NCBI GenBank assembly: GCA_964016885.1
Contig: OZ024746.1
Span: forward strand, 95,976,001-96,040,000
Direction: 5' to 3'
From: Eledone cirrhosa
Lineage: Eukaryota
Length of the DNA stretch: 64,000 bases
Notes under the pieces: model-generated
The model's database searches: none
What the model saw: only the letters and a program-made list of their open reading frames with translations
Told to the model about the DNA's origin: nothing
Program-made: the position numbers and the translations under genes
Part shown: piece after piece, positions 10,221 through 40,830 of the stretch
Layout of the letters: every line of letters begins with the position of its first letter
How positions within the stretch are numbered: the first letter of the stretch is position 1

Positions 10221-10835
10221 TGAGGAGTATGAAGCTTGTTATGAGCCTTGCAGAACTTCTGCTTTAGAAGGGAAACTGGCTTTAAAATAACTGTTGTTGT
10301 TCATCATCATCATCATCACCATCATCATTTACATCATCTTCCACGTTAGCAGGGTAGGACGACTGTTTTGTTGTATGGAATATATTTAAGACGCCTACTA
10401 AAAAGACATCCACAAATATTCAACTGCTTTATGTAAGTATGTTAATTTCTAATCCACTCTTGTTATTTTTTACCACATATATAAATATAACTAAAAAAAT
10501 GTTGAATGTTCTTATACTATAAATTGTAATAATGATTTCTTTATTTAAATGAAAGATTATAAAGAAATCATTATTCCAATTTTTCTTTTGCTTATATCAA
10601 TAGTAATAAGTATAAGAACAGTCAATGTTTTTTTCTAGTTATATTTTTATATGTGGTGTTCGGGTTTTTTATATAACTGATGATTAGTTGTGTAACTTGA
10701 ATACATTTGGTTTTCTAATAAATTACCTACAATATATTTTAGGTTGGCTACTGATTAATTACTCTGGTCTTTTGAGTTGTGGCGCCTGACATCTATATAG
10801 TCTATATAGTAAATATTACTAACTATTATACACAT

Positions 10836-13180: not shown

Positions 13181-13288
13181 AGAAATGGCTTCTACAGGAC
13201 TAGAACTGTTTCATTCGGGAGAAATCATAAGGAAGCTCTGATGATTTCTCCCGAATGAAACTGTTCTAGTCCTGTAGAAGCCATTTCT
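13181..13288 (+). repeat. 48-bp-arm palindrome containing an HHR-like core
   Basis: Arms 13181-13228 and 13241-13288. CTGATGA at 13238, GAAAC at 13257, GTA at 13274. Stem I pairs poorly. Confidence 0.8.
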
Positions 13289-13624
13289 ATATTAAATATT
13301 TATACTTTGCTATGTATTGAGTACCTTACTGTGGTTACCCTCAATTGAACACGGGATAAAGGTATATATATACTTTTTAGCACCCCATCATATATATAGA
13401 TTGGGGGCTGAAAACTTCCTGGCTTTGGGTAAAAGAAAATACAGGATGATCAGTTAATTATGATTTTATTCAACATATTCCCCTCTCAGATTCACACACT
13501 TACTGCAGCAGTCCTTCAATTTTTCTAAGCCTTGTAAAAAGAACTCGGAAGATTGGGCCTTCAACCAAGCCTTTGTGATAATTTTAAAACTAAGAACTTT
13601 TTAGCACTCCTTATGATGATGATG

Positions 13625-13985
13625 ATCATCATCATCACCGTTTTACGTCCGTTCTTCCACGCTAGCATGGGTTAGACGGGTTGTCCAGTTGTGGGCAGTG
13701 CCCAGTCGGCTGACCTTGTCTTGCTCATACGGAAACTGATTCTGGCTTGATTTCTACAGCTGGATGCCCTTCCTAACACCAACCTCATTTACAGTGAGTG
13801 CTGGGCGCTTTTTTTCCATGGTGACTATACGTCCACTTAACAGTGTGGGCTAGGTGCCTTTATTGCCGTGGCACCTCCACGACCACTTTGCAGTGGAATG
13901 ATAGGGACCCCAGTCCTATCATCTCATTTCTACAGCTGAGTAAACTGGAGTAATGTGAAATAAAGTGTCTTGCTCAAGGAAACAC
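13625..13985 (-). mobile_element. SINE family A (5' truncated)
   Basis: Core plus RTE-type tail. Full-length copies at 15237-15565(-), 19696-20082(-) and 41580-41920(-). A 3' part lies at 38423-38648(+). Confidence 0.85.
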
Positions 13986-14413
13986 TTATACATTTATATA
14001 ACATTAGGCTATATCATATTTAGTAAATATCCCTAACAAGTTTGTATATAAACTCTGTGTCTGTATAAAAGGATAAAGAGCCTCTTCGGTCATGAGCAGC
14101 CATGGGATTTGCACCTAGAAAGTTCTACTCCGAAGTACAATCCTGGGCCAGGTTGTTTGTGGAAGACCAGCAGTCGTCCATACATACCAGTCTCCCCTCT
14201 CCACACCACCGATGATGTCCAACGGAAAGGCAATGGCTGATACAGCTTGGAACCAGTGATGTCACAACATATACTATATATACTCACTATATATACACTC
14301 TATACTCTATATATACACTATATACTCTATATATACACTATATATATACACTCTATATTCTATATATACACTCGATACTCTATATATACACTATATACTC
14401 TATATATACACAG

Positions 14414-14855
14414 GTGGTGGTGGTGGTGGTGGCGGTGGTGACGGTGGTGGTAGTGGTGGTGGTGGTGGTGGTGGTGATGGTGGTGGTGGCGGTGGCGGTG
14501 GTAATGGTGTTGATGGTGGTGGTGGTGGTGGTGGTAGTGATGATGGTGGTTGTATTGGTAGTGGTGGTGGTGGCAGTGATGGTGGTGGTGGTGGTGGTGG
14601 TAGTGATGGTCGTGGTAGTGATGGTGGTGGTTGTGGTGGTAGTGGTGGTGGTGGTGGTGATGGTGGTAGTGGTGGTGGTGGTGGTGGTGATGCTGGTGGT
14701 GGTGGTGGTGGTGGTGGTGATGCTGGTGGTGGTGGTGGTGGTGGTAGTGATGATGATGATGGTGGTGGTGGTGTTGGTGGTGGTGGTGATGATGATGATG
14801 GTGGTGGTTGTGGTGGTGGTTGTGGTGGTGATGACGATGGTTGTGATGATAATGA
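14414..14855. repeat. (GGT/GAT)n trinucleotide array
   Basis: Seen directly in the sequence. Confidence 0.95.
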
Positions 14856-16091
14856 TTGTGTGAGTGTATGTGTGAGTGCATGTGTGTGTGTGTGTAAGAT
14901 TGTGTGTGTGTGTGTAAGATTGAGTGTGTGTGAGTGTATGTGTGTGAGTGTAACATGAGTCTAAATCATAATATTCTGACATCATCTGGGTTATTTAATA
15001 ATGAATGTATTCTCTGCTTTATATATATGAATGTGGAGAAGGGGTTGTCTAAGACAGCCCTTAGATACACAAGAGAAGTCGATATAGATTTAACCAATCA
15101 GGCTTCTAAATGTTAAGTTTTTCAGGCTGTATTTCTAACCATTATTTAATTCAATAGTTTATTGTTAGTCAGATGTTATGGTCTGTAACGATAAGACCCA
15201 GAGGTCAAACCAAATTTTACAGTCCTGTATTATATTCATCATCATTTTTACGTCCGCTTTTCCCTGCTTGCAAGGGTGGGACGGGAAATGATTCTGGCCT
15301 GATTTCTACAGCTGGATGCCCTTCCTAACACTAACCTCATTTACAGTGAGTGCTGGGTGCTTTTTTGCTGTGGCACCTCCACGACCTCTTTGCAGTGGAA
15401 TGACAGGGACCCCAGTCCCTATCATCTCATTTCTACAGCTGAGTAAACTGGAGCAATGTGAAATAAAGTGTCTTGCTCAAGGAAACAACACATCACCCGG
15501 TCTGAGAATTGAACTCACAACCTTTCGATTGCAAGGCCAATGCTCTAACCACTAAGCCATGTGCCTCCACTGTAAATTTATAAACATTATTGTAAAGAAC
15601 TATGGCGGTGGATTGGCAGTATCGGTAGAGGGTCAGACACCATGCTTAGCAGCATAGAGTTACGGCCCTTTATGATCTGAGTTCAAATCCCACTGAGGTT
15701 AACTTTGCCTTTCATCCTTACGGGGTCAATAAAATGTAGTACCAGTCATGCACTGGGCGGGATTTAATCGACTTCTGCCTCCCCCTATATTGCTGGCCTT
15801 GTGCCTATATAAGGAACCATTATTTAATTCAATAGTTTGTTAGTCAGATGTTATGGTCTGTAATGATAAGACCCAGACTAGTGTAAATAACTATGGTGGT
15901 GGATGTCATGCTTACCAGCATAGAGTTACGGCCCTTTAGGGTCTGAGTTCAATTCCCGCCGAGGTTAACTTTGCCTTTCATTCCTACTGGGTCGATAAAA
16001 TAAAGTACCAGTAATGTACTGGGGTAATTGCTGGCCTTGTGCCAAAAGTAGAAACAATTATTGTAAAGGATTATAGTCAGAGTTAGTATGA

Positions 16092-16862
16092 AATCATCAT
16101 CATCGTCATCATCGTCATCATCATCATCACCATCAACATCACCATCATCATCACCATCATCATCAGCATATTCATCAGCATCATCATCATTATCATCATC
16201 ATTATACCTACCACCATGATCGTCATCACCACCACCACCATCATCACCACCACCACCACCACCACCATCATTATCTTCATCATCATCATCATCACCACCA
16301 TCATCTTGACCATCATCATCAGCACCACCACCATCACCACCATCATTATCATCATCATCACTGCCACCACCATCACCACCACCACCACCACCACCACCAC
16401 CACCACCACCACCACCATCATCATCACCACCACTACAACCACCACCACCACCATCATCACCATCACCATCATCACCATCACCATCACCATCATCACCATC
16501 ACCACCATCACCACCACCACCACCATCACTATCATCATCATCACCATCACCACCACCATCACCACCATCATTATCATCATCACCACCACCACCACATCAC
16601 CACCACCACCACCATCACCACCACCATCATCATCGCCGCCACCACCACCACCACCATCACCACCACCATCATCATCACCACCACCACTACCACCATCATA
16701 ATCACTATCACCACCACCATCACCACCACCACCATCATTATCATCACCATCACCACCACCACCACCACCACCACCATCACCACCATCACCACCACCACCA
16801 CCACCATCATCATCACCACCACCACCATCATTATCTTTATTGTAGTTATCGTCATCATCATC
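16092..16862. repeat. (CAT/CAC)n trinucleotide array
   Basis: Seen directly in the sequence. Confidence 0.95.
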
Positions 16863-17134
16863 AATTTTACATACATTTTTCCAGAATGAAATTGGTAATA
16901 GAAGACATTTTCAGACAATTCTACAACCTGATGACCTTTGTGATGTTACATACCCTTGGTTTCTCAGTAAGATATAGATCTTCACACATTAAACTGCTGT
17001 CATCTCACAGTCTGATCTTTTAACCCTTTTCTTACCAATCCAGCCAAAACCGGCTCTGGTTCTATTAAATAAAGTCACACATTTTTCAAGTGTGCTCATG
17101 TTTGTTGCCTATATATTACGCTTCAGCTAAATGA

Positions 17135-17298
17135 GAGTACACAATTCTATCCAACAAGTTCAAAGTATAGTCTGAAGGTTTGAGGAGTACACAATTCTAT
17201 CCAACAAGTTCAAAGTATAGTCTGAAGGTTTGAGGAGTACACAATTCTATCCAACAGGTTCAAAGTATAGTCTGAAGGTTTGAGGAGTACACAATTCT
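17135..17298. repeat. 50-bp tandem repeat, about 3.3 copies
   Basis: Unit GAGTACACAATTCTATCCAACAAGTTCAAAGTATAGTCTGAAGGTTTGAG. Confidence 0.95.
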
Positions 17299-17349
17299 TT
17301 CTGTTGCCACAGAATTACATTCAGTGCTATTATTGTTACATCCTAGCTT

Positions 17350-18054
17350 CAGTTCAACAGTTCTACAGTTCAACAGGTCTACAGTTCAACAGTTCTACAG
17401 TTCAACAGTTCTACAGTTCAACAGTTCTACAGTTCAACAGTTCTTCAGTTCAACAGTTCTTCAGTTCAACAGTTCTTCAGTTCTACAGTTCTTCAGTTCA
17501 ACAGTTCTTCAGTTCAACAGTTCTTCAGTTCAACAGTTCTACAGTTCTTCAGTTCTACAGTTCTTCAGTTCAACAGTTCTACAGTTCTTCAGTTCAACAG
17601 TTCTTCAGTTCAACAGTTCTACAGTTCTTCAGTTCTACAGTTCTACAGTTCTTCAGTTCTACAGTTCTTCAGTTCTACAGTTCTTCAGTTCTACAGTTCT
17701 TCAGTTCAACAGTTCTACAGTTCTTCAGTTCTACAGTTCTTCAGTTCAACAGTTCTACAGTTCTTCAGTTCAACAGTTCTTCAGTTCAACAGTTCTACAG
17801 TTCTTCAGTTCTACAGTTCTACAGTTCTTCAGTTCTACAGTTCTACAGTTCTTCAGTTCAACAGTTCTACAGTTCTTCAGTTCAACAGTTCTACAGTTCT
17901 TCAGTTCAACAGTTCTACAGTTCTTCAGTTCAACAGTTCTACAGTTCTTCAGTTCTACAGTTCTACAGTTCTTCAGTTCAACAGTTCAGCAGTTCAACAG
18001 TTCTACAGTTCAACAGTTCTACAGTTCTACAGTTCAACAGTTCTTCAGTTCTAC
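17350..18054. repeat. 8-bp satellite CAGTTC(AA/TA/TT)
   Basis: Three interspersed octamer variants. Confidence 0.97.
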
Positions 18055-18378
18055 AATTTATTGTGCTTCATTGTGTCGAAATAGAAACTTGTAATTTACT
18101 GTTCCTTGTTCAATTACTTACGCACATAGTTCAACACTGTAAATATGGTTGGTGTTAGGAAGTGTATCCAGCTGTAAAAATCTGGCCAAATTTACAGTCC
18201 CATCAGAGCAAGGTACAGTGTGACCAATTCTGGCCAGACTTGTCTCTCGACGCAGAAACCCTCCTAACTTAGGGAAGTATGGAAAATGGATGTTAAACGG
18301 TGATGATGATGATGATAATAAGGAAATAAAAAAGACACGACAAACCTATTTTAAGTTATGTTCCAGTCACCACATTAA

Positions 18379-18586
18379 TCCTTTAGCATTTAAACTGGCT
18401 GCATCCGGCCAGAATTCTCTCAACTCTTTCTCTTCAAACTGTCCATAACTGGCCACTCATACTGATGTTAAGGTATTGTTCTCGAAATAAATAACTTTAA
18501 AATCTCGTAGATTTGATATTATATAAGATAAAGTCTTTACCACAAAAATACAATAGTATATCTAGAGTAATGTAAATGCTAAATGG
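18379..18586. mobile_element. TTAA-flanked (piggyBac-like) MITE
   Basis: TTAA|TCCTTTAGCATTTA...TAAATGCTAAATGG|TTAA. A second copy lies at about 19251-19468. Confidence 0.75.
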
Positions 18587-19574
18587 TTAATAACAAGAAA
18601 GGTAGTTCTATTACTATATCCTTCTAAATTCTTGATTATTTTCAAAATTATTAAAAAATAATAGTGTATTTCATTAGAAATATGATAATAAAAGGGTTAA
18701 TAGACAGCTTCCTCATAAGCCAGGTTTGTTATATTCAAAGAATTTTATGGCAAAGATTATAATACATTATTTTCATATAGATAGTTACAAATAAATTACT
18801 TCTCATTTCGGCAGATTGCTAGTCAAAACTATTTAATGTTTTCTCATTTTAGTTTCTGAATTCAAATCCTGCCAGAACTGAATTTAATTTGGCTTTCACC
18901 CTCAGGTGTTGATAAACAAAAAAGTATTTATAATATATTGGAATTGATTCAATAATATTGGCCTTGTGCCTAGCTTTTAAAAAATAATCAATATTCTCAC
19001 TAAGGTTGGGGTTGAGATAGTTGGGCAGAAAACTACAGAAAACTAAACAAGAGAGAACCTCTACATGGTTGCCTGACCTACAAGCAGAGCTAGATTGGGG
19101 GTGGGGGTTGCATGGCACTTCAGGTTGGGGGTGGGGATCATACACAAAATATGACAATACATAGCAATCCCCCTCCCCCCAGTTTTATATATCAAAGGTA
19201 GCTTGGTGCGAATAATTTGAATTGAAAAGTTATCTATAGAAGAATATTAACCCTTTAGCATTTAAACCGGCCATATCAGGCCAGAATTCTCTCACCTCTT
19301 TCTGTTCAAACTGGTGGTAACTGGCAGCTCATACTGATGTTAAAGTATTGTTCTCAAAATAAATATCAAAATATCATAGATTTGATATTATATGAGATAA
19401 TTATGTGAGGTAAAGCCTTTACCGTGAAAATACAATAGTAAATATAGTGTAATGTAAATGGTAAAGTGTTAAATTCAAAAAATCTAACCATCCTAAAACT
19501 AAAAAACCCAGCTGAGGGCACAAATAAATTACTACGGCCGTCACTGGCGGAGGCTCAGGGCAATTACCAACCCC

Positions 19575-19661
19575 GTTTAAGCAAAGAATCACTGCTTTCA
19601 CCCTTAACGGGACCTTCTGAAGATCCTGTTAAGGGTGAAAGCAGCAATTCTTTGCTTAAAC
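19575..19661 (+). repeat. Palindrome centred on an HHR core
   Basis: Arms of ~43 bp centred at 19618. The right side reads CTGAAGA-tcctgttaagggt-GAA-AGCAG(caattct)TTGCT-T. Confidence 0.75.
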
Positions 19662-21497
19662 TTTAATCTTAATGTTATTTTAATAAATATATATATCATC
19701 ATCATCATCACCGTTTTACGTCCGTTCTTCCACGCTAGCATGGGTTAGACGGCTTGTCCTGTTGTGGGCAGTGTCCGGTCGGCTGACCTTGTCTTGCTCA
19801 TACGGGAACTGATTCTGGCTTGATTTCTACAGGTGGATGCCCTTCCTAACACCAACCTCATTTACAGTGAGTGCTGGGTGCTTTTTTGCCGTGGCACCTC
19901 CACAACCACTTTTGCAGTGGAATGATAGGGACCCCAGTCCCTATCATCTCATTTCTACTGCTGAGTAAACTGGAGCAATGTGAAATAAAGTGTCTTGCTC
20001 AAGGAAATAACACATCACCCGGTATGAGAATTGAACTCACAACCTTTCGATTCCAAGCCCAATGCTCTAACCACTAAGCCACGTAGGTATAAATATGTAT
20101 ATATATATATGATGGTAAAAAAACGGGAGATTATATCTGTAGTTGGCAGAGCACTCAGTCCAAAGGACAAGTTCGGTATAAAAATCACCATCATCATTAT
20201 TATCATCATATATTATGTATAAGTACATGTCAACATGTTAAATTATACATGGGTGTGTATGCTAATATGGAAAAACAGACATAAAATGATAATGTACATA
20301 CATACATCAATGTAAAAAATGTGAATAATTTAATCACATGAGAGATAATATACAATAAAAAAATTGTATTAAAACAATGCTTCAATTATCCAATACATAT
20401 ATTTAATAAATGTCTTTTCTAAAGTATAAAATATATTTTACTAATATTGTTTCATCTATAAATAGTGAGTGATGGTGCATGACTTAGTGGTTAAAGTGTT
20501 GGCCTTACAATTAAGAGGTGTGAGTTGGATTCTAGGATCGAGTGATGCATTGTGTTCTTGAGCAAGACACTTTATTTCATGTTGCTCCGGTTTACTCAGC
20601 TGTAGAAATGAGTTGCGATGTCACTGGTGTCAAGCTGTATCGGCCATTGTCTTTCCCTTGGACAACATCAGTGGTGTGGAGAGGGTATGCATGAGCGACT
20701 GCTGGTCTTCCACAAACAAGCTTGCCCGGACTTGTGGCTCAGAGGGAAACTTTCTAGGTGCAAATCCCTGGTCACTAGTGTCCAATGGGGGCCTTATATT
20801 TAGTGATTAGAAAGTCCCATAGCAACCATGCAACATCCATTTTGAGAAAAATCTTTGCCTGCTTCGGGCCCCAAAGGGGTCTTGTATTGCCTTGCAAAAT
20901 TTCTCTTGGAGGCCCTGGGAGCAATGATAAAATGCACCCAGCATACTCTGTAAAGTGTTTTGTGATCAAACAGAAACAAGGTGTCTTAGAGAGGATTCTC
21001 ATGTTTTATTGAGTACACAAGAGAGCTTGTCATGTCTTTGATACAACTGAAGGATCCTTGCCAACTTTTAGGATAGTAGGAGCAGTGGTGGTAGGTGTGT
21101 TTCTTTACATAGAACAAAATAGTTTTTAAGGACAAAGGAAATATTCTGTAAATATGTGTGTGTATCTCTATTGTGTTAATGGACTGGTCAAGAGTTCAGA
21201 TGGGCAAAGGGAGGGATTGTAAGATAAATTCTATGGGATTGGCAACAGTAGGGTTGTAAAAGAAATTCTATTTTTGGAATATGGTTTTAGAGTGTGTGTA
21301 CGTGTGAGAGTGTATATATAAAAAAAATACACACATGTGTGTAGGGGAGGGGGAGCTTCAGCCTATAACCACTGTTTTGTATAGAACCTTACTTCCCTTT
21401 TCAAATATATATATATATATTTAGCTTTATGTTCTTTCTTATATCCTATTTTCCCTAAACCACAGGTTTTCAACCCATTTAAGCCAAATCACGAAAC

Positions 21498-21550
21498 GGG
21501 GGTTGTCACAGGTTGTTTTTTCATTGAAAAAACAACCTGTGACAACCCCC
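21498..21550. repeat. Perfect 26-bp-arm palindrome at the start of a pLTR-like segment
   Basis: GGGGGTTGTCACAGGTTGTTTTTTCA-T-TGAAAAAACAACCTGTGACAACCCCC. Confidence 0.9.
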
Positions 21551-21735
21551 ACCCCTCTCTTATTTGAAGAACTATTGTAACGCGAACTGGCGCGAAATTT
21601 ATTATAATTATTGACAAACCAATCAAATTACTTCTCCAAAAACCTGGCTTTCGAGCCACTTTTTCCATATAAAACAAGTAACATTTAGAGACCAACCAGA
21701 TGTGAGAAAAACCACAGACCCTCCATCTCAACTCA

Positions 21736-21773
21736 CCTTTTGAAAAGCAGAAGAACTGCGAAACCGGTAAAGG
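21736..21773 (+). ncRNA. Minimal type I HHR with U3-A8 core variant
   Basis: CCTT-TTGAAAA-GCAG(aagaa)CTGC-GAAA-CCGG-TA-AAGG. Confidence 0.75.
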
Positions 21774-21904
21774 AACCAAATAAATATATATATTTTAAAA
21801 AAAAATAAGACTTCAGTTGCATTTTCGATTTCATCTCTTTTTCTTTATACTTCCACTCGTGTAGGACACCTCGGTTATTTTCCATTTTGTAAAAAAAACC
21901 TCAC

Positions 21905-21992
<88 letters not shown>

Positions 21993-21996
<4 letters not shown>

Positions 21997-22158
21997 AAGT
22001 ATGACCCCGACGGCAGAGCTCTAGCCGTTTCGACGGCTATTTCTGGACAGAAATAGCCGTCGAAACGGGTTGAGCCCTGCCGTCGGGGTCATACTTTTTC
22101 CTATTACCCACTCTACTACCCTAAGTATTGAGTACTCTGGCTTCTATTTCTAATTCTT

Positions 22159-22164
<6 letters not shown>
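21993..22164 (+). mobile_element. PLE-like 3' remnant: 53-bp-arm palindrome with an HHR 3' half, inside (TA)n
   Basis: Arms 21993-22045 and 22048-22100. Family consensus GAAAC-GGC(ttgagctct)GCC-GTC. Other copies at 25777-25964 and 28001-28139. Confidence 0.7.
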
Positions 22165-22197
<33 letters not shown>

Positions 22198-23033
22198 TAG
22201 AAAGGAAAAGAAAATGCTGACAAATTTTTCCCAGTGAAAAATAGTTTAATTAGGAATAAATATAAATTAGTAATAAGTATTGGTTAGTATTCAGTTTTAA
22301 TTTTAAGTTTTTACCGGTTGCGCATTTTTAATGCTTTTCAAAAATAATTTGTTTGCTCTAATCTGATTATTATCTTTCCTACTTATTAAGACTTTCATCT
22401 TTGCTAAATTTAGTTTTTACCTTTTCAACTCTACATTCTTTCCATGCTTCAAATTTTGCTCTATCTCTCTTATGGATTCAGCTATAAAGACTAGGTTATC
22501 AGCATAAAGGAACTCCTATGGAGTGCCATTTGTAAACTACTTGGTGATGGCCTGAAGGAAAATGATAAACAGAAGTGGTCTGGTGATTGAGTCCTGGTAG
22601 AACCCTACCTGCACTTCAAATTCATCACTGTACTCATTGCTAACCCTGACTCTGCTGGTTGCTCTTTTTTTACATAGCCTGCATGGCCCTCACAGCTTCC
22701 TGAGTGGCCACCAGATTACAGTCCTTCTCCAGATCTACAAATGCTAGATACAGTGGTTTACTCTTAGCCAAGTATTTCTCCTTTGTACTTTGTTTCATTC
22801 ATGACTCTTGTGCTATAAGAATCACCACACATTTTCCCTGACGTCACATATATATATATATATATAAGCAGAAGGGATATTCAATTTGTTGGTAATTCAA
22901 CAAATATAAATGTTTATAACTGATTCAGAGCACTTGACAGGTTTTCTGGAGTATAATATTCAATGATATTAAATAAATGGAAACTGTATTTATAAAACCA
23001 TATTTATTCTATATATTTCAAGAGTACCAAAAC

Positions 23034-23088
23034 TTTATCTGATGAAAGCGTACCAAAGTTTTGGTACCCTTGAAATATATATAATAGA
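23034..23088 (+). ncRNA. Type I HHR inside a long palindrome (22961-23135)
   Basis: TTTAT-CTGATGA-AAGcGTACCAAA(gt)TTTGGTACcCTT-GAAAT(atat)ATA-ATAGA. Confidence 0.8.
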
Positions 23089-25025
23089 ATAAATATGGTT
23101 TTATAAATATAGTTTCCATTTATTTAATATCATTGTATATATATATATATATATACTTGTAGCTTAATTGCTATAAATTAATGTTTTGTCTCTCGTCTCT
23201 TACTCAACTGGACAGCATTTGGCTTATGTCAGATGCTGTGACCCCAGGTGGGCCAGCAGTGCCGTTGGTAGGGGGTCAAAACTGCCTAAATCCACTTCAA
23301 CACCCGATGACCCTGGAATTCTGTGTCCTTCATTTGTATTTTCATTTTTAAAAAATAATTTTTTAAGGTTTCTCCTTAAAAATTGTTTTCTGTTCATTGT
23401 CTTATCTTCCCTTTGTTAATTTTCTTAATTTTATCTCTCCTGAAGTTGTCTCACCAGAAAGAGGAAATTGGTACTTCCCCTACATGGCATAAATCCAAAC
23501 TGCACCTCTAATTTGATTCTGTCCCTAATTAGTTGTGTTGTAAACCTTTCAGCAACTTTCATGACCTAGTCCATCAACTTCATGCCTCTGTAATTACTTC
23601 TCTCTAATTTCTCTAATGCATCTTGTAGCAATTTACAATTGTGTGTATGTGTATGTGTGCGTGTGTGTGTTTGTATGATCATATATATATATATATAAAC
23701 AGTTATGTGTGAGCAAACATGGTCATCTGATCTAACTTGTCTCACAAGGGGACAACTCGTCAAACCCATGCTATCGTGGAAAAATGGACGTTAAACACTG
23801 ATGCTATATATATATATATGTGTGTGGGTGTGTGTGTGTGTGTGTGTGTATATACATGTGTATATATATAAATATATATACATGTGTGCATATATAGAGA
23901 GAGAGAGGGGGGGGAGATATAGATAGATAGATAGATAGAGCTCCAGTATGTCCTTCGCCGTGACATCTGTGCATATATGCACGCATTCATATAATATGCG
24001 CGCGCGTGTATGTGCGCACCGACTTGTGAGCGCGTATGTTTGTCTTGTTTACCTTAAATTAAATAGGTTCTTTTATTTACATTCATGTGAGGGTTGGTGT
24101 TTGTTTATAAGGAAGAAAATGATCGGTTACGGCACTAAGGTTACGGCACTAAGGACCACCTGTTGGATTTGGTAATGGGAAGTGATTTTTGCGTCTTCTG
24201 TCGATACGCACTGTCTCAAAGAAAAGCACATGGCTCTATCTTCTCTCTTCTCTCTTCAATAGAAGGAAAGCGAAAATGACGCTGCAACTGTTGCATGAGT
24301 CATGTTTTGTAGTATGATATAAACGGAGAATGAGAATATGGAAGAAAGAAAGAGAGAGAGAGAGAAAGAGAGAGAAGAAAATCAATACATGAAAATACAA
24401 TTTTTCGGATATGTGTAATATTGTTGATATGCAAGGAGAGAAGCTGGTAAGAAAAAGGAAGTAATTAAAGGGTTAGAAAAAGGAAAGAAGGGAGATTGGA
24501 GGTGTTTTGTTAACGTACGTAAGAATGTATTAGGAGTGGTTGGCGGAGTGAGAAGACGGGAACTGGAATGTAGTGCATGTGAGTAGAGGAATAGAGTAAA
24601 GAAAGTTGATAGAATAAATGAATTAGAGAGAGGAAAAGAGTGAGACAGAGAGGGGGATAGAGAGTGTATGTGTGACCGAGTGAGAGAGAAAGAGAAAGCG
24701 AGGTAGAGAGCATTATATATATATTTATTTATTTATTTGTATATATATCTACACCTTCGCGCGCGTGTATGTGCAATTGTTCTGCCTTAAACAAGTATAT
24801 AGAGAGTATTTATCAAATAGGCAGTGTTTTATTTTACTGTTCAAACTAACACAACAGTACATTACGCCGAGGCTGACAGGTTGAGGGTGAATATTTAAAC
24901 GAATCTTACCGACAAAGACAAGTCAGGGAGAGCGGTCAGTAATTACAGACGGACAAGTAAGCCAATCTCTTTCTCTCTCTCTCTCTCTTTTGTCTCTTTC
25001 ACACGCACACTTGTGTGCGTGTATG

Positions 25026-25075
<50 letters not shown>

Positions 25076-26251
25076 ACATAATCTATACATGTATTACATA
25101 TTTATATATGCGATAAAACTTATTTACATTTACAAAAAAAAGGGGTATTTTCATTTCTGTGGATGATTATATGTATGTATGAATGTAGGTGGGTGTGTAC
25201 GCGCATACACATGTATATAATATATATATGTATGTATATATATATATGTGTGTGTGTAATGTTGCTTTCAAATATCATAAATAAAATATGATTCTGGATA
25301 AGAATTCCCTCTATCATTGGCAACTTTTACCTCAAGCAAAGATTGAATTAAACACGGCAGATTAGCGGTTCCTTCATGGTTTTCACGTTGCTACAGCTTT
25401 CACCGGCAAACTACACTATACGGTGGATATGCCAGTGAGAGAGGCTACACACGCGCTATCAACCGACGAGGAATAAACAGATATATGTCCCTCAAACTAA
25501 ATATATAATTACCGTCTAAAAAGGAAGAAGGTTATATTGGACACCATCTAGTTCCATGTATACAAAACGGATATGTCTGGAATGTGTTTAATCATAGGTT
25601 GGGTTAATTAAGCAGGCCTAGGGCTAAATGAAAAGCTAGGTAGCAGATAACCGGTCAGTTCAGATGTTAGTATTACAGTATTTGTAGAGGTGTAGTGCCG
25701 GTTTCAAGACATCTGACACCAACCACTTTATACATACATACATATATAACTATAACTATATATATATATATATAATATAGGAAAATGTATGACCCCCGAC
25801 GGCAGTGCTCAAGCCGTTTCGACGGCTATTTCTGGACTTAGTCGAAACGGCTTGAGCTCTGCCGTCGGGGTCATACATTTTCCTATTACCCACTCTACTA
25901 CCCTAAGTATTGAGTACTCTGGTGCGTTATGGTCCATCTGGTTCCTTACCACAACTCCTTCGTTATATATATATATTTATATATATATAAATCCGAGGCC
26001 ATATTTATTTGGTTTTGGTTTATTAAAATCCGTAATGTACATTTTGCTGAGGACTATCAGTTATGACATCCTCAGCTCCTCAAACGGTAAACCTAAAAAA
26101 ACAATGAAATATTATTTTAAAACCCTTTAAATTTGGAAAATCTTGATACAGGGAGCTGGCCGGACGTGTGATATCGTTGATAACAGAGCTCGTATGACTA
26201 AAATGATTATATTTCGCCTGTTTCATAGGAACCATTTCGCATGCTCCGCTT

Positions 26252-27675: not shown

Positions 27676-27719
<44 letters not shown>

Positions 27720-27859
27720 GTGTTAAACAATATTCAATGAGTATGTCAAAGAATGAGTTTTACAGTAGATTGGAAGCACTCTACGGCAAAATAATTTTCC
27801 ATAGTTATTAATATTAAAATACAAATATTAATAAAATAGATGTTCTTTTGATCAATTAC

Positions 27860-27912
27860 ATTTTATTATACATATTTCGGATCTACAACAGTACGTCCTC
27901 ATCAGACAAAAT
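27860..27912 (-). ncRNA. Type I HHR
   Basis: ATTTTGT-CTGATGA-GGA...TCC-GAAAT(atgt)ATA-ATAAAAT. The element runs into (TA)n at about 27715. Confidence 0.8.
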
Positions 27913-28155
27913 ATAATGATACATGATATACCCTGAGATGTTAAATGGTTAAGATTTAATCAAGGTAGTATATATATTTTCATTTAGTAAATTTTCATTT
28001 AGTCCAGAATTAGCCGTCGAAACGGCTTGAGCTCAGCTGTCGGGGTCTTACTGGTTCCTATTACCCACTCTACTACCTCAAGTATTGAGTACTTTGGTGC
28101 GTTATGGTCCACCTGGTTCCTTACCACATTTCCTTCGTTATATATATATATATAT

Positions 28156-28265
28156 ATATAAGTTAAAACAATGAAATAAAAAATCAAGTCATTAGAGATA
28201 TACTTCACTGCTGTGAAGTATATCTCTAATGACTTGATTTTTTATTTCATTGTTTTAACTTATAT
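28156..28265. repeat. Perfect ~53-bp-arm palindrome with a 4-nt loop
   Basis: 28156-28208 matches the reverse complement of 28213-28265. It abuts (TA)n. Confidence 0.9.
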
Positions 28266-28393
28266 CATGACTCTGTTTTCCTTTCAATGTTTTATTGTTT
28301 TCCAAGATTTATCTTAACCTACAACATTTTCAACATATGGATTACATCGAGTTCTTCATGCAGAATAGAGCCCCACAACTTACTGTGGATACC

Positions 28394-28429
<36 letters not shown>

Positions 28430-40022: not shown

Positions 40023-40830
40023 AGTATGTACACATACATACATATATGTATACCGACGTACAGTAGTATGTATATATATATATATATACATACATGCACA
40101 CATATATATATATGCACGTATGGATTCACCGAACATTTATTATAATGCTCGGTGTGTTTGTAAACAAACATCCCGTATTAAGCCGTAGTGTCTAGCAACC
40201 ACCGTTGCTCGTTTGTTCAACACTGACAAAGGAACGCTGTACTAGTTTCAAGCTTGTTAGGTACATACATATATGTACGCATCAGTTTAGCGGACGCTTA
40301 TTGTAGCGCCCGCTTTGTTCGTTTGTAAACAAACTGAACAGCCTGAATTTATGCCGCATGGCGTTAAGGCAACCACGTCACCTTTTTGTTCAACACTGAC
40401 ACAGGAACGATGTACTAGTTTCAAGCTTGTTAGCTATCATCAGCACCGTATACCCATCTGCCAGATAGTTGAACGTTCGAAAGTATATACTTTCCTTATG
40501 AAAATTAACGGCTGAGCAGCCTAATTTGCATATCGAGTGAGTTAAATCGGTCAGGCGCGCCGAAAAAGATGAGTTGTAATAAAATGAAAACGAAATTTCA
40601 TTTCTCACTCTTAGTACGGCACTTACTTAAATGTAAGTATGTATGTATACGTACATACATATATGTATACAGACGTACAGTAGCATGCATATATATAGTA
40701 TACATATATACATACAGGTACACATACATATATGTACGCATCAGTTTAGCGGACGCTTATTATAGCGCCCGCTTTGTTCGTTTGTAAAACTAAACTGATG
40801 CGTACATATATGTATGTGTACCTGTATATG
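40021..40830 (-). mobile_element. Non-coding HHR-bearing element in partial tandem, with a terminal inversion
   Basis: Units 40021-40260 (diverged, cut in stem II), 40261-40715 and 40716-40788. The inverted piece 40790-40825 mirrors ~40714-40749. Flanked by (TA)n. Confidence 0.75.
40407..40449 (-). ncRNA. Type I hammerhead ribozyme, canonical core
   Basis: ACGGTG-CTGATGA-tAGCT(aaca)AGCTt-GAAA-CTAG-TA-CATCGT. Confidence 0.9.

What the first reader, a model, noticed from the sequence alone, without database searches (positions are those of the whole stretch)
13181..25964. Long DNA palindromes whose symmetry centres fall on the hammerhead core or stem II
Seen: five palindromes from four sequence families (13181-13288, 19575-19661, 21993-22100, 22961-23135, 25777-25886) all turn around at the CTGANGA core or within stem II. 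The copies at 28001 and 40260 are truncated in stem II. Known: PLE insertions often have inverted 5' segments. Inference: cDNA synthesis stalls or folds back at the ribozyme, giving tiny two-armed insertions in (TA)n. The breakpoints lie upstream of the predicted cleavage site, so simple run-off at a cleaved 5' end does not explain them.
Basis: partly seen in the sequence, partly recalled or inferred. Interest (0 to 1): 0.7.

Follow-up and report, generated by a model that had tools for sequence, protein, structure and literature searches.

The report
Penelope hairpins mark capped RNA starts
These mirror-image DNA pieces are very common short insertions of Penelope-type jumping genes, and across families their centres follow one fixed site that is likely the capped start of the element's RNA rather than its ribozyme, which would give a testable model of how these elements copy themselves into both ends of a DNA cut.

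Summary
The five palindromes are real. They are head-to-head inverted pLTR pairs of four Penelope-like families with Hydra-clade protein motifs, each with 5,400-40,000 exact anchor matches in this genome. The ribozyme-stalling reading fails. In 131 palindromic loci sampled by a downstream anchor, the longer arm reaches one fixed family-specific site in 103. That site lies 45 nt inside the ribozyme in family A, 5-6 nt before the core in B and C, and 80 nt before it in D. In D only 7 of 69 ends fall in the core or stem II (9 expected by chance), so window palindrome 22961 is an outlier. The CTGAAGA at 19617 is made by the junction; the native motif is CAGAAGA. Copies starting at the site often carry an extra G that read-through copies lack, sometimes on both arms. 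The arms share subfamily variants, and usually one carries a tail. Best reading (inferred): both strands of a cut in (TA)n prime reverse transcription at two internal sites of one RNA, both cDNAs run off its capped 5' end, and they are joined. The structure is published; I did not find this reading in print. This scan reached it earlier on other genomes.

The parts
13181..13236 (-). Family B tail-less arm; 5' end at +2 from the family start
13237..13357 (+). Family B tailed arm from +6; hammerhead core 13238-13244, GAAA 13257-13260, predicted cut after 13276, stem I 3' strand 13277-13282
19575..19621 (-). Family C arm, 5' end at +4; outer end eroded, no TA tract beside it
19615..19690 (+). Family C tail-less arm; the CTGAAGA at 19617-19623 is made by the junction (native CAGAAGA); predicted cut after 19657
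21911..21992 (.). (AT)41 target tract
21993..22047 (-). Family A tail-less arm; 5' end about +3, in loop II of the ribozyme
22048..22140 (+). Family A arm from about +5 with a broken tail; GAAA 22062-22065, predicted cut after 22084
22866..23036 (-). Family D tailed arm, 5' end in the stem II loop (+99 from the family start; atypical)
23034..23135 (+). Family D tail-less arm from +78; core 23039-23045, GAAA 23072-23075, predicted cut after 23083
25777..25838 (-). Family A tail-less arm reaching +1
25841..25964 (+). Family A tailed arm from +16 (or from the start with a 14-nt deletion between GTC repeats)
27716..27969 (-). Fifth family (E), single tailed copy; begins 64 nt upstream of its core (27905-27899)
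28001..28139 (+). Family A single tailed copy beginning at the family start site
28156..28397 (.). Sixth family (F): palindrome 28156-28265 plus tail; centre 2-6 nt downstream of the predicted cut
40262..40470 (-). Family G minimal hammerhead (core at 40443) followed by a tandem copy that begins in stem II near 40262

Best explanation
The palindromes are the shortest class of ordinary Penelope-like insertions, and their centres follow a fixed family-specific site that is likely the capped 5' end of the element's RNA; both strands of a cut in (TA)n likely prime reverse transcription on one RNA, and the two cDNAs likely run off that end and are joined head to head. Shown: the shared 5' boundary in four families; its changing distance from the ribozyme; an extra G at that boundary; two fixed outer ends (tail-less and tailed, about 55-90 nt apart); shared variants in the two arms; Hydra-type RT/GIY-YIG ORFs upstream in long copies. 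Inferred: that the boundary is a transcription start, that the G copies the cap, that there are two priming events on one RNA, and that later central deletions or early stops move some centres downstream. The ribozyme coincides with the break only where it sits at the start.
For: Ends of anchored copies in a 20-nt window at the start: A 44 of 66, B 47 of 67, C 23 of 57, D 20 of 69; ends in the 40 nt before versus after the window's upstream edge: 2/53, 0/61, 7/30, 1/29. The longer arm reaches -8..+12 of the start in 38 of 41, 31 of 39, 15 of 20 and 19 of 31 palindromic loci. Letter before +1 in the first 100 listed matches (hand counts): C family G 59, C 24, A 17, against T in 36 of 36 read-through copies and G 22 of 100 one base further in (Fisher p 1.5e-7); A family G 51, C 43, A 6; D family G 35, A 16, T 49, with G in 12 of 17 ended and 0 of 13 read-through loci. 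Both arms with G and one base between: 5 pairs among the 200 matches; a single C/G between two full arms in L041, L263, L321, L338. B has TATAAATA 30 nt before its start in 12 of 12 long copies where the start was located. One tailed plus one tail-less arm in 113 of 131 loci; the tail-less arm reaches 4 nt or more further 5' in 56, the tailed arm in 37. L346 joins a short tailed inverted arm that begins at the start to a 2.5-kb body truncated in the RT. Arms agree at polymorphic columns: A 167 of 183, B 92 of 112, D 216 of 249 (shuffled 58%, 56%, 50%). In raw RAD reads of runs X4-X6 depth rises about 40-fold across the A start and opposite-strand joints begin at 1442-1453 of L056, start at 1445. 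In vitro a PLE protein extends both target strands from two internal RNA sites (PMC11167929); an extra G marks cap copying in L1 (PMC11702581).
Against: No RNA data: the start site is not shown to be a transcription start. In ended A arms the templated T is the commonest letter before +1 (T 23, G 15, C 8, A 4 of 50), so starts are spread or the G is often missing. Several D Gs can be read from the partner arm, and L323-L325 are near-identical repeats. B cannot be tested for G because it starts with GG. An RT that adds C at any RNA end would give the same G. A TATA box is clear only in B. The boundary is leaky: 39 of 73 C and 18 of 77 D copies read through, and 12 of 31 D palindromes stop more than 12 nt short. 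Start positions were picked from the same data, so the p-values are descriptive. Shared variants also fit snap-back or gene conversion; in C the test is uninformative (47 of 54 versus 75% shuffled). The read test on D was inconclusive. In family F 2 of 30 copies plus the window palindrome begin within 6 nt after the predicted cut.
Confidence: 0.7

Rival explanations
1. Snap-back: one cDNA runs to the RNA 5' end, folds back, copies itself up to a spot with TA microhomology and joins the other target end.
For: Arms share variants; short microhomologies at some centres (19615-19621; L151, L154, L307); self-priming was proposed for PLE palindromes (PMC3846280, passages) and snap-back after full-length cDNA is seen with R2 (PMC11371274, passages).
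Against: The copy should be a subset of the first cDNA, but the tail-less arm reaches further 5' in 56 of 113 loci; G on both arms with a one-base spacer leaves no loop; L346 has arms that contain different sequence; the tail-less end is also the end of long single copies (L119, L131, L132, L158, L164, L171). Later central deletions weaken the subset argument.
Confidence: 0.15
2. The ribozyme fold stalls the RT or triggers fold-back.
For: Ends inside core-to-GAAA are enriched in A (52 of 66), B (35 of 67) and C (12 of 57); window palindrome 22961 and L167/L187 turn in stem II of D.
Against: D: 7 of 69 against 9.0 expected, at least three of them alignment artefacts (L165, L208, L218); A: 2 of 66 in the 5' half; the four A ends at the 3' base of stem II belong to a diverged subfamily; the E palindrome in L326 centres 64 nt before its core.
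Confidence: 0.07
3. The boundary is a splice acceptor and the template is a spliced RNA with a short first exon.
For: An AG with a pyrimidine-rich or branch-like stretch lies within 10 nt of the start in A, B, C and D; in D. virilis Penelope the intron ends at the 5' end of helix I (PMC4209133, part 2).
Against: No recurring upstream exon: 1 of 126 non-templated junctions matched a 7-mer before an upstream donor, and that hit is not a family copy (no donors were available for B). Many A copies keep letters that would be intronic.
Confidence: 0.05
4. The hairpins are assembly artefacts, or MITE-like units copied whole.
For: One A junction form recurs identically in L004, L007 and L022, and with single changes in L016 and L018.
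Against: Arms differ by 4-7% at the median and only 5 of 109 pairs are identical; junctions are mostly different; opposite-strand joints occur in raw reads of other samples; long copies lead into RT/EN ORFs.
Confidence: 0.03

Closest known systems
EN+ Penelope-like element insertions with an inverted 5'-truncated pLTR and a one-sided tail (PMC3846280 passages; PMC8557442 passages)
   Same: Head-to-head inverted pLTRs, tail on one arm, hammerhead in the pLTR, simple-repeat targets, long copies with the same inverted arm (L346).
   Different: Most copies here have no body; tails are about 55-90 nt against 30-40 bp reported; the papers read ascribe the palindromes to self-priming or leave them open and do not map the centre to an RNA start.
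Hydra clade of C-terminal EN+ PLEs (PMC8557442, section 11)
   Same: CxCX5C linker, no cysteine pair between the GIY and YIG equivalents, CxxC and CxH near the end, (TA)n targets, hammerheads.
   Different: RWK and DKT motifs not seen (copies are 5'-truncated); no tree built; family C has a CAGAAGA core.
Anolis PAc in vitro reaction (PMC11167929, parts 1-2 of 4)
   Same: Both target strands extended, two internal RT start sites that define the tail, ribozyme cleavage not needed for insertion.
   Different: Poseidon clade; the text read does not treat the 5' junction, the cap or head-to-head joining.
L1 twin priming and cap-derived G (PMC11702581, passages)
   Same: Second target end primes a second cDNA; extra G at full-length 5' junctions.
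   Different: In L1 the two cDNAs cover adjacent, barely overlapping RNA parts; here both cover the same 5' segment.

Membership tests
EN+ Penelope-like elements | RT followed by a C-terminal GIY-YIG endonuclease upstream of the pLTR | tested here: met
   By motif reading and tblastn: A (L341, L345), C (L346, L347), D (L381, L382, L385, L386), B (EN part in L364, RT-EN in L372). Pfam 0 of 5 proteins and PDB sequences 0 gave no match.
EN+ Penelope-like elements | Inverted 5'-truncated pLTR with a tail on one end | tested here: met
   113 of 131 palindromic loci have one tailed and one tail-less arm
EN+ Penelope-like elements | Target-site duplication | tested here: inconclusive
   Flanks are (TA)n, so no duplication can be read
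Hydra clade | CxCX5C linker; no CCHH; CxxC and CxH at the EN end | tested here: met
   Linker CNC-5-C in A, B, C, D; one cysteine only between the GIY and YIG equivalents
Hydra clade | RWK and DKT motifs, and placement in an RT tree | not tested
   Fetched copies lack the N-terminus; no reference Hydra proteins on hand
Hydra clade | Insertion into (TA)n | tested here: met
Type I hammerhead ribozyme | Core CUGANGA and GAAA with stems I-III and NUH | tested here: met
   B and D in long copies. A has the U3-A8 form described in PMC4209133 in L032 and L056, other changes in L047 and L068. No hammerhead family among the 150 of 321 Rfam matches shown.
Type I hammerhead ribozyme (family C) | U at core position 4 | tested here: not met
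   CAGAAGA in 4 of 4 reference copies, with stems I and III intact
Type I hammerhead ribozyme | Self-cleavage | not testable with these tools
   Needs an in vitro assay
Non-LTR retrozymes | Tandem units each with a complete hammerhead | tested here: not met
   Copies are single or head-to-head and mostly lack part of the motif; definition from 10.64898/2026.07.22.740005, part 1
MITE / fold-back DNA transposon | Fixed unit with terminal inverted repeats copied whole | tested here: not met
   Variable junctions, asymmetric ends, ORF-linked long copies

The most novel reading that the evidence does not exclude
Penelope-like elements replicate through a strong-stop step: an RT dimer makes two short cDNAs from the 5' pLTR of one capped RNA, one per target strand; the stretch from cap to ribozyme cut (about 41-46 nt in A, B, C) acts like a retroviral R region for strand transfer into the body, and these hairpins are the events in which both cDNAs met each other instead. 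In family A the start inside loop II would switch off the 5' ribozyme while the 3' copy stays whole.
Probability: 0.2. Interest if true: 0.75.

Novelty: new member of a known kind. Interest (0 to 1): 0.48.

Why it matters
How Penelope-like elements, the retroelements closest to telomerase, form their tandem and inverted ends is named as open in PMC8557442. This genome offers a natural experiment: the ribozyme's distance from the break changes from -45 to +80 nt between families while the break keeps its extra G. That separates RNA start from ribozyme and gives exact predictions for the existing in vitro system and for cap-selected RNA sequencing. It also means thousands of hairpins can be read as a record of germline transcription starts.

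Tried and rejected
Rfam scan of the window: no hammerhead among the 150 rows shown of 321; the rows are mostly microRNA models on repeats. The first genome search used a query that held a junction, so its 30 loci are biased and were left out of all counts. Pfam and PDB sequence searches gave nothing; no Atlas result was obtained. No RNA holder was listed, which says nothing on expression. Reads laid on a D copy were dominated by diverged relatives and had low depth at the start, so the test was inconclusive. The five window loci were not checked in reads. Spliced-exon test negative. The own-end classes for family C were unreliable and were redone. Family F was checked for run-off at the cut: weak, 2 of 30. 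Rows dropped: the five rows of the decayed B satellite L102-L107 (72 to 67); probable segmental duplicates (L167/L187, L282/L285, L087/L088, L323-L325) were not removed.
Full report
Observation. The five palindromes are in the sequence. The window is G000:C6:95976001-96040000 of a 3.0-Gb animal genome; that it looks like a cephalopod is my recall, not a tool result.

Families. Exact anchor matches downstream of the ribozyme number 5,414 (A), 8,236 (B), 40,061 (C) and 6,673 (D); both arms of a palindrome can match in B, C and D. I took the first listed places on contig C1, which are not chosen for their 5' structure, and mapped 71, 72, 73 and 77 anchored copies on real long copies. Long copies of all four families lead upstream into an RT and GIY-YIG frame with a CxCX5C linker and no CCHH pair, which are the Hydra-clade features in PMC8557442 section 11. 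Pfam and PDB gave no match, and no tree was built.

Ribozymes. B and D have canonical cores and stems. A has TTGANAA-type cores, a long stem II and a loop of about 33 nt; the U3-A8 change is described in PMC4209133.

Breakpoints. Each family has one main 5' boundary. It lies 45 nt after the first core base in A (inside loop II), 6 and 5 nt before the core in B and C, and 80 nt before it in D. Ends in a 20-nt window there: 44 of 66, 47 of 67, 23 of 57, 20 of 69 (copies that run past -300 excluded: 5, 0, 16, 8; five B satellite rows dropped). D separates the two readings: 7 of 69 ends lie in core-to-GAAA against 9.0 expected, in 29 of 31 D palindromes the longer arm ends upstream of the core, and in none do both arms end inside it. 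A has 2 of 66 ends in the 5' half of its ribozyme. A fifth family in the window starts 64 nt before its core, and its palindrome in L326 centres there. Four window palindromes centre within a few bases of their family boundary; 22961 is the exception. The boundary was chosen from the same data, sampling covers only the first part of C1, and duplicates were not removed.

Extra G. In the first 100 listed matches the letter before the boundary is G 59, C 24, A 17 in C, where read-through copies have T in 36 of 36; one base further in, G is 22 of 100. Mutation of T would favour C, not G. A gives G 51, C 43, A 6 (C is templated in one subfamily), D gives G 35, A 16, T 49. These are hand counts. Among 30 D loci G stands in 12 of 17 ended and 0 of 13 read-through copies, though several can be read from the partner arm. 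Against: T is still the commonest letter in ended A arms (23 of 50). In L1 such a G is taken as the copied cap (PMC11702581, passages). B has a TATA box 30 nt upstream; A, C and D have initiator-like words (consensus recalled) but no clear TATA box.

Two priming events. The outer ends fall at two fixed sites per family, and 113 of 131 palindromic loci have one of each. The tail-less arm reaches further 5' in 56 and the tailed arm in 37, so often neither arm is contained in the other. Some junctions have G on both arms with one base between (L037, L084; five pairs). L346 joins a short tailed arm to a 2.5-kb truncated body. The arms share variants far above shuffled pairs in A, B and D, which points to one RNA or one source copy, but also fits snap-back or conversion. 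PMC11167929 (parts 1-2 of 4) shows in vitro extension of both target strands from two internal RNA sites, without need of ribozyme cleavage.

Independent reads. On a long A copy, raw RAD reads of X4, X5 and X6 rise from about 190 to about 8,250 mean depth (X4) across the boundary, and opposite-strand joints begin at 1442-1453 (boundary 1445); divergence upstream and RAD bias may add to the step. The same test on D was inconclusive. The window loci themselves were not checked, and no RNA run was listed.

Mechanism. Inferred: a pLTR promoter starts a capped RNA; the protein cuts both strands of (TA)n; each end primes at one of the two internal sites; both cDNAs run off the cap and are joined with little or no microhomology; early stops and later deletions shift some centres downstream. 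Priming in a downstream pLTR would give the long read-through arms.

Known and new. The inverted pLTR with a tail is published (PMC3846280 and PMC8557442, passages), as is a start site inside the pLTR (PMC8557442, passages). Searches listed no paper that ties the inversion centre to a capped start or to twin priming; the library lacks most subscription papers, and I did not read the supplements of PMC8557442 or PMC11167929, which may hold these families or 5' end maps. Also seen: PMC4209133 parts 1-2 of 4, PMC11371274 passages, 10.64898/2026.07.22.740005 part 1 of 5. I wrote the start-site and two-strand idea in my notes before the look-up; earlier notes of this scan give the same reading on other genomes and related two-armed elements in this one. 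They are not support. What this window adds is a set of families in which start and ribozyme come apart.

Verdict. Interest 0.48.

Noticed in passing
family C, e.g. L132, L140, L143, L158; window 19615-19662: Hammerhead-shaped motif with intact stems but CAGAAGA in place of CUGANGA, in a family with 40,061 exact anchor matches: a natural core variant or a dead ribozyme.
   Followed up: partly
family A, L032, L056, L068, L099: Core is the U3-A8 type with a loop II of about 33 nt that holds the inferred RNA start.
   Followed up: partly
window 28156-28397; L397-L426: Family F, TTGAAAA-type core with a long stem II; several copies start at the stem I 5' edge, and 2 of 30 plus the window palindrome start just after the predicted cut.
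   Followed up: partly
window 27716-28139: A family E copy and a family A copy lie head to head about 30 nt apart; L044 (D with A), L040 (a LINE with A) and L151 (A with C) show other mixed head-to-head joins.
   Followed up: no
window 25841; L002, L004, L007, L010, L012, L016, L018, L022, L029: Recurrent 14-nt deletion between GTC repeats in the tailed arm of family A; several copies share nearly the same junction, so a few hairpins may have been copied as units.
   Followed up: no
L102-L107: Decayed tandem satellite of about 68-bp units derived from family B.
   Followed up: no
L128: Family B arm that carries the family A tail; the A, B and D tails share a short ACTC...GAGT hairpin motif between the two end sites.
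   Followed up: no
window 21498-21550, 10521-10582, 40714-40825: Further palindromes not assigned to the four families.
   Followed up: no
window 20016-20088 (-): tRNA-like match (Rfam tRNA, 40.8 bits), probably a SINE head.
   Followed up: no
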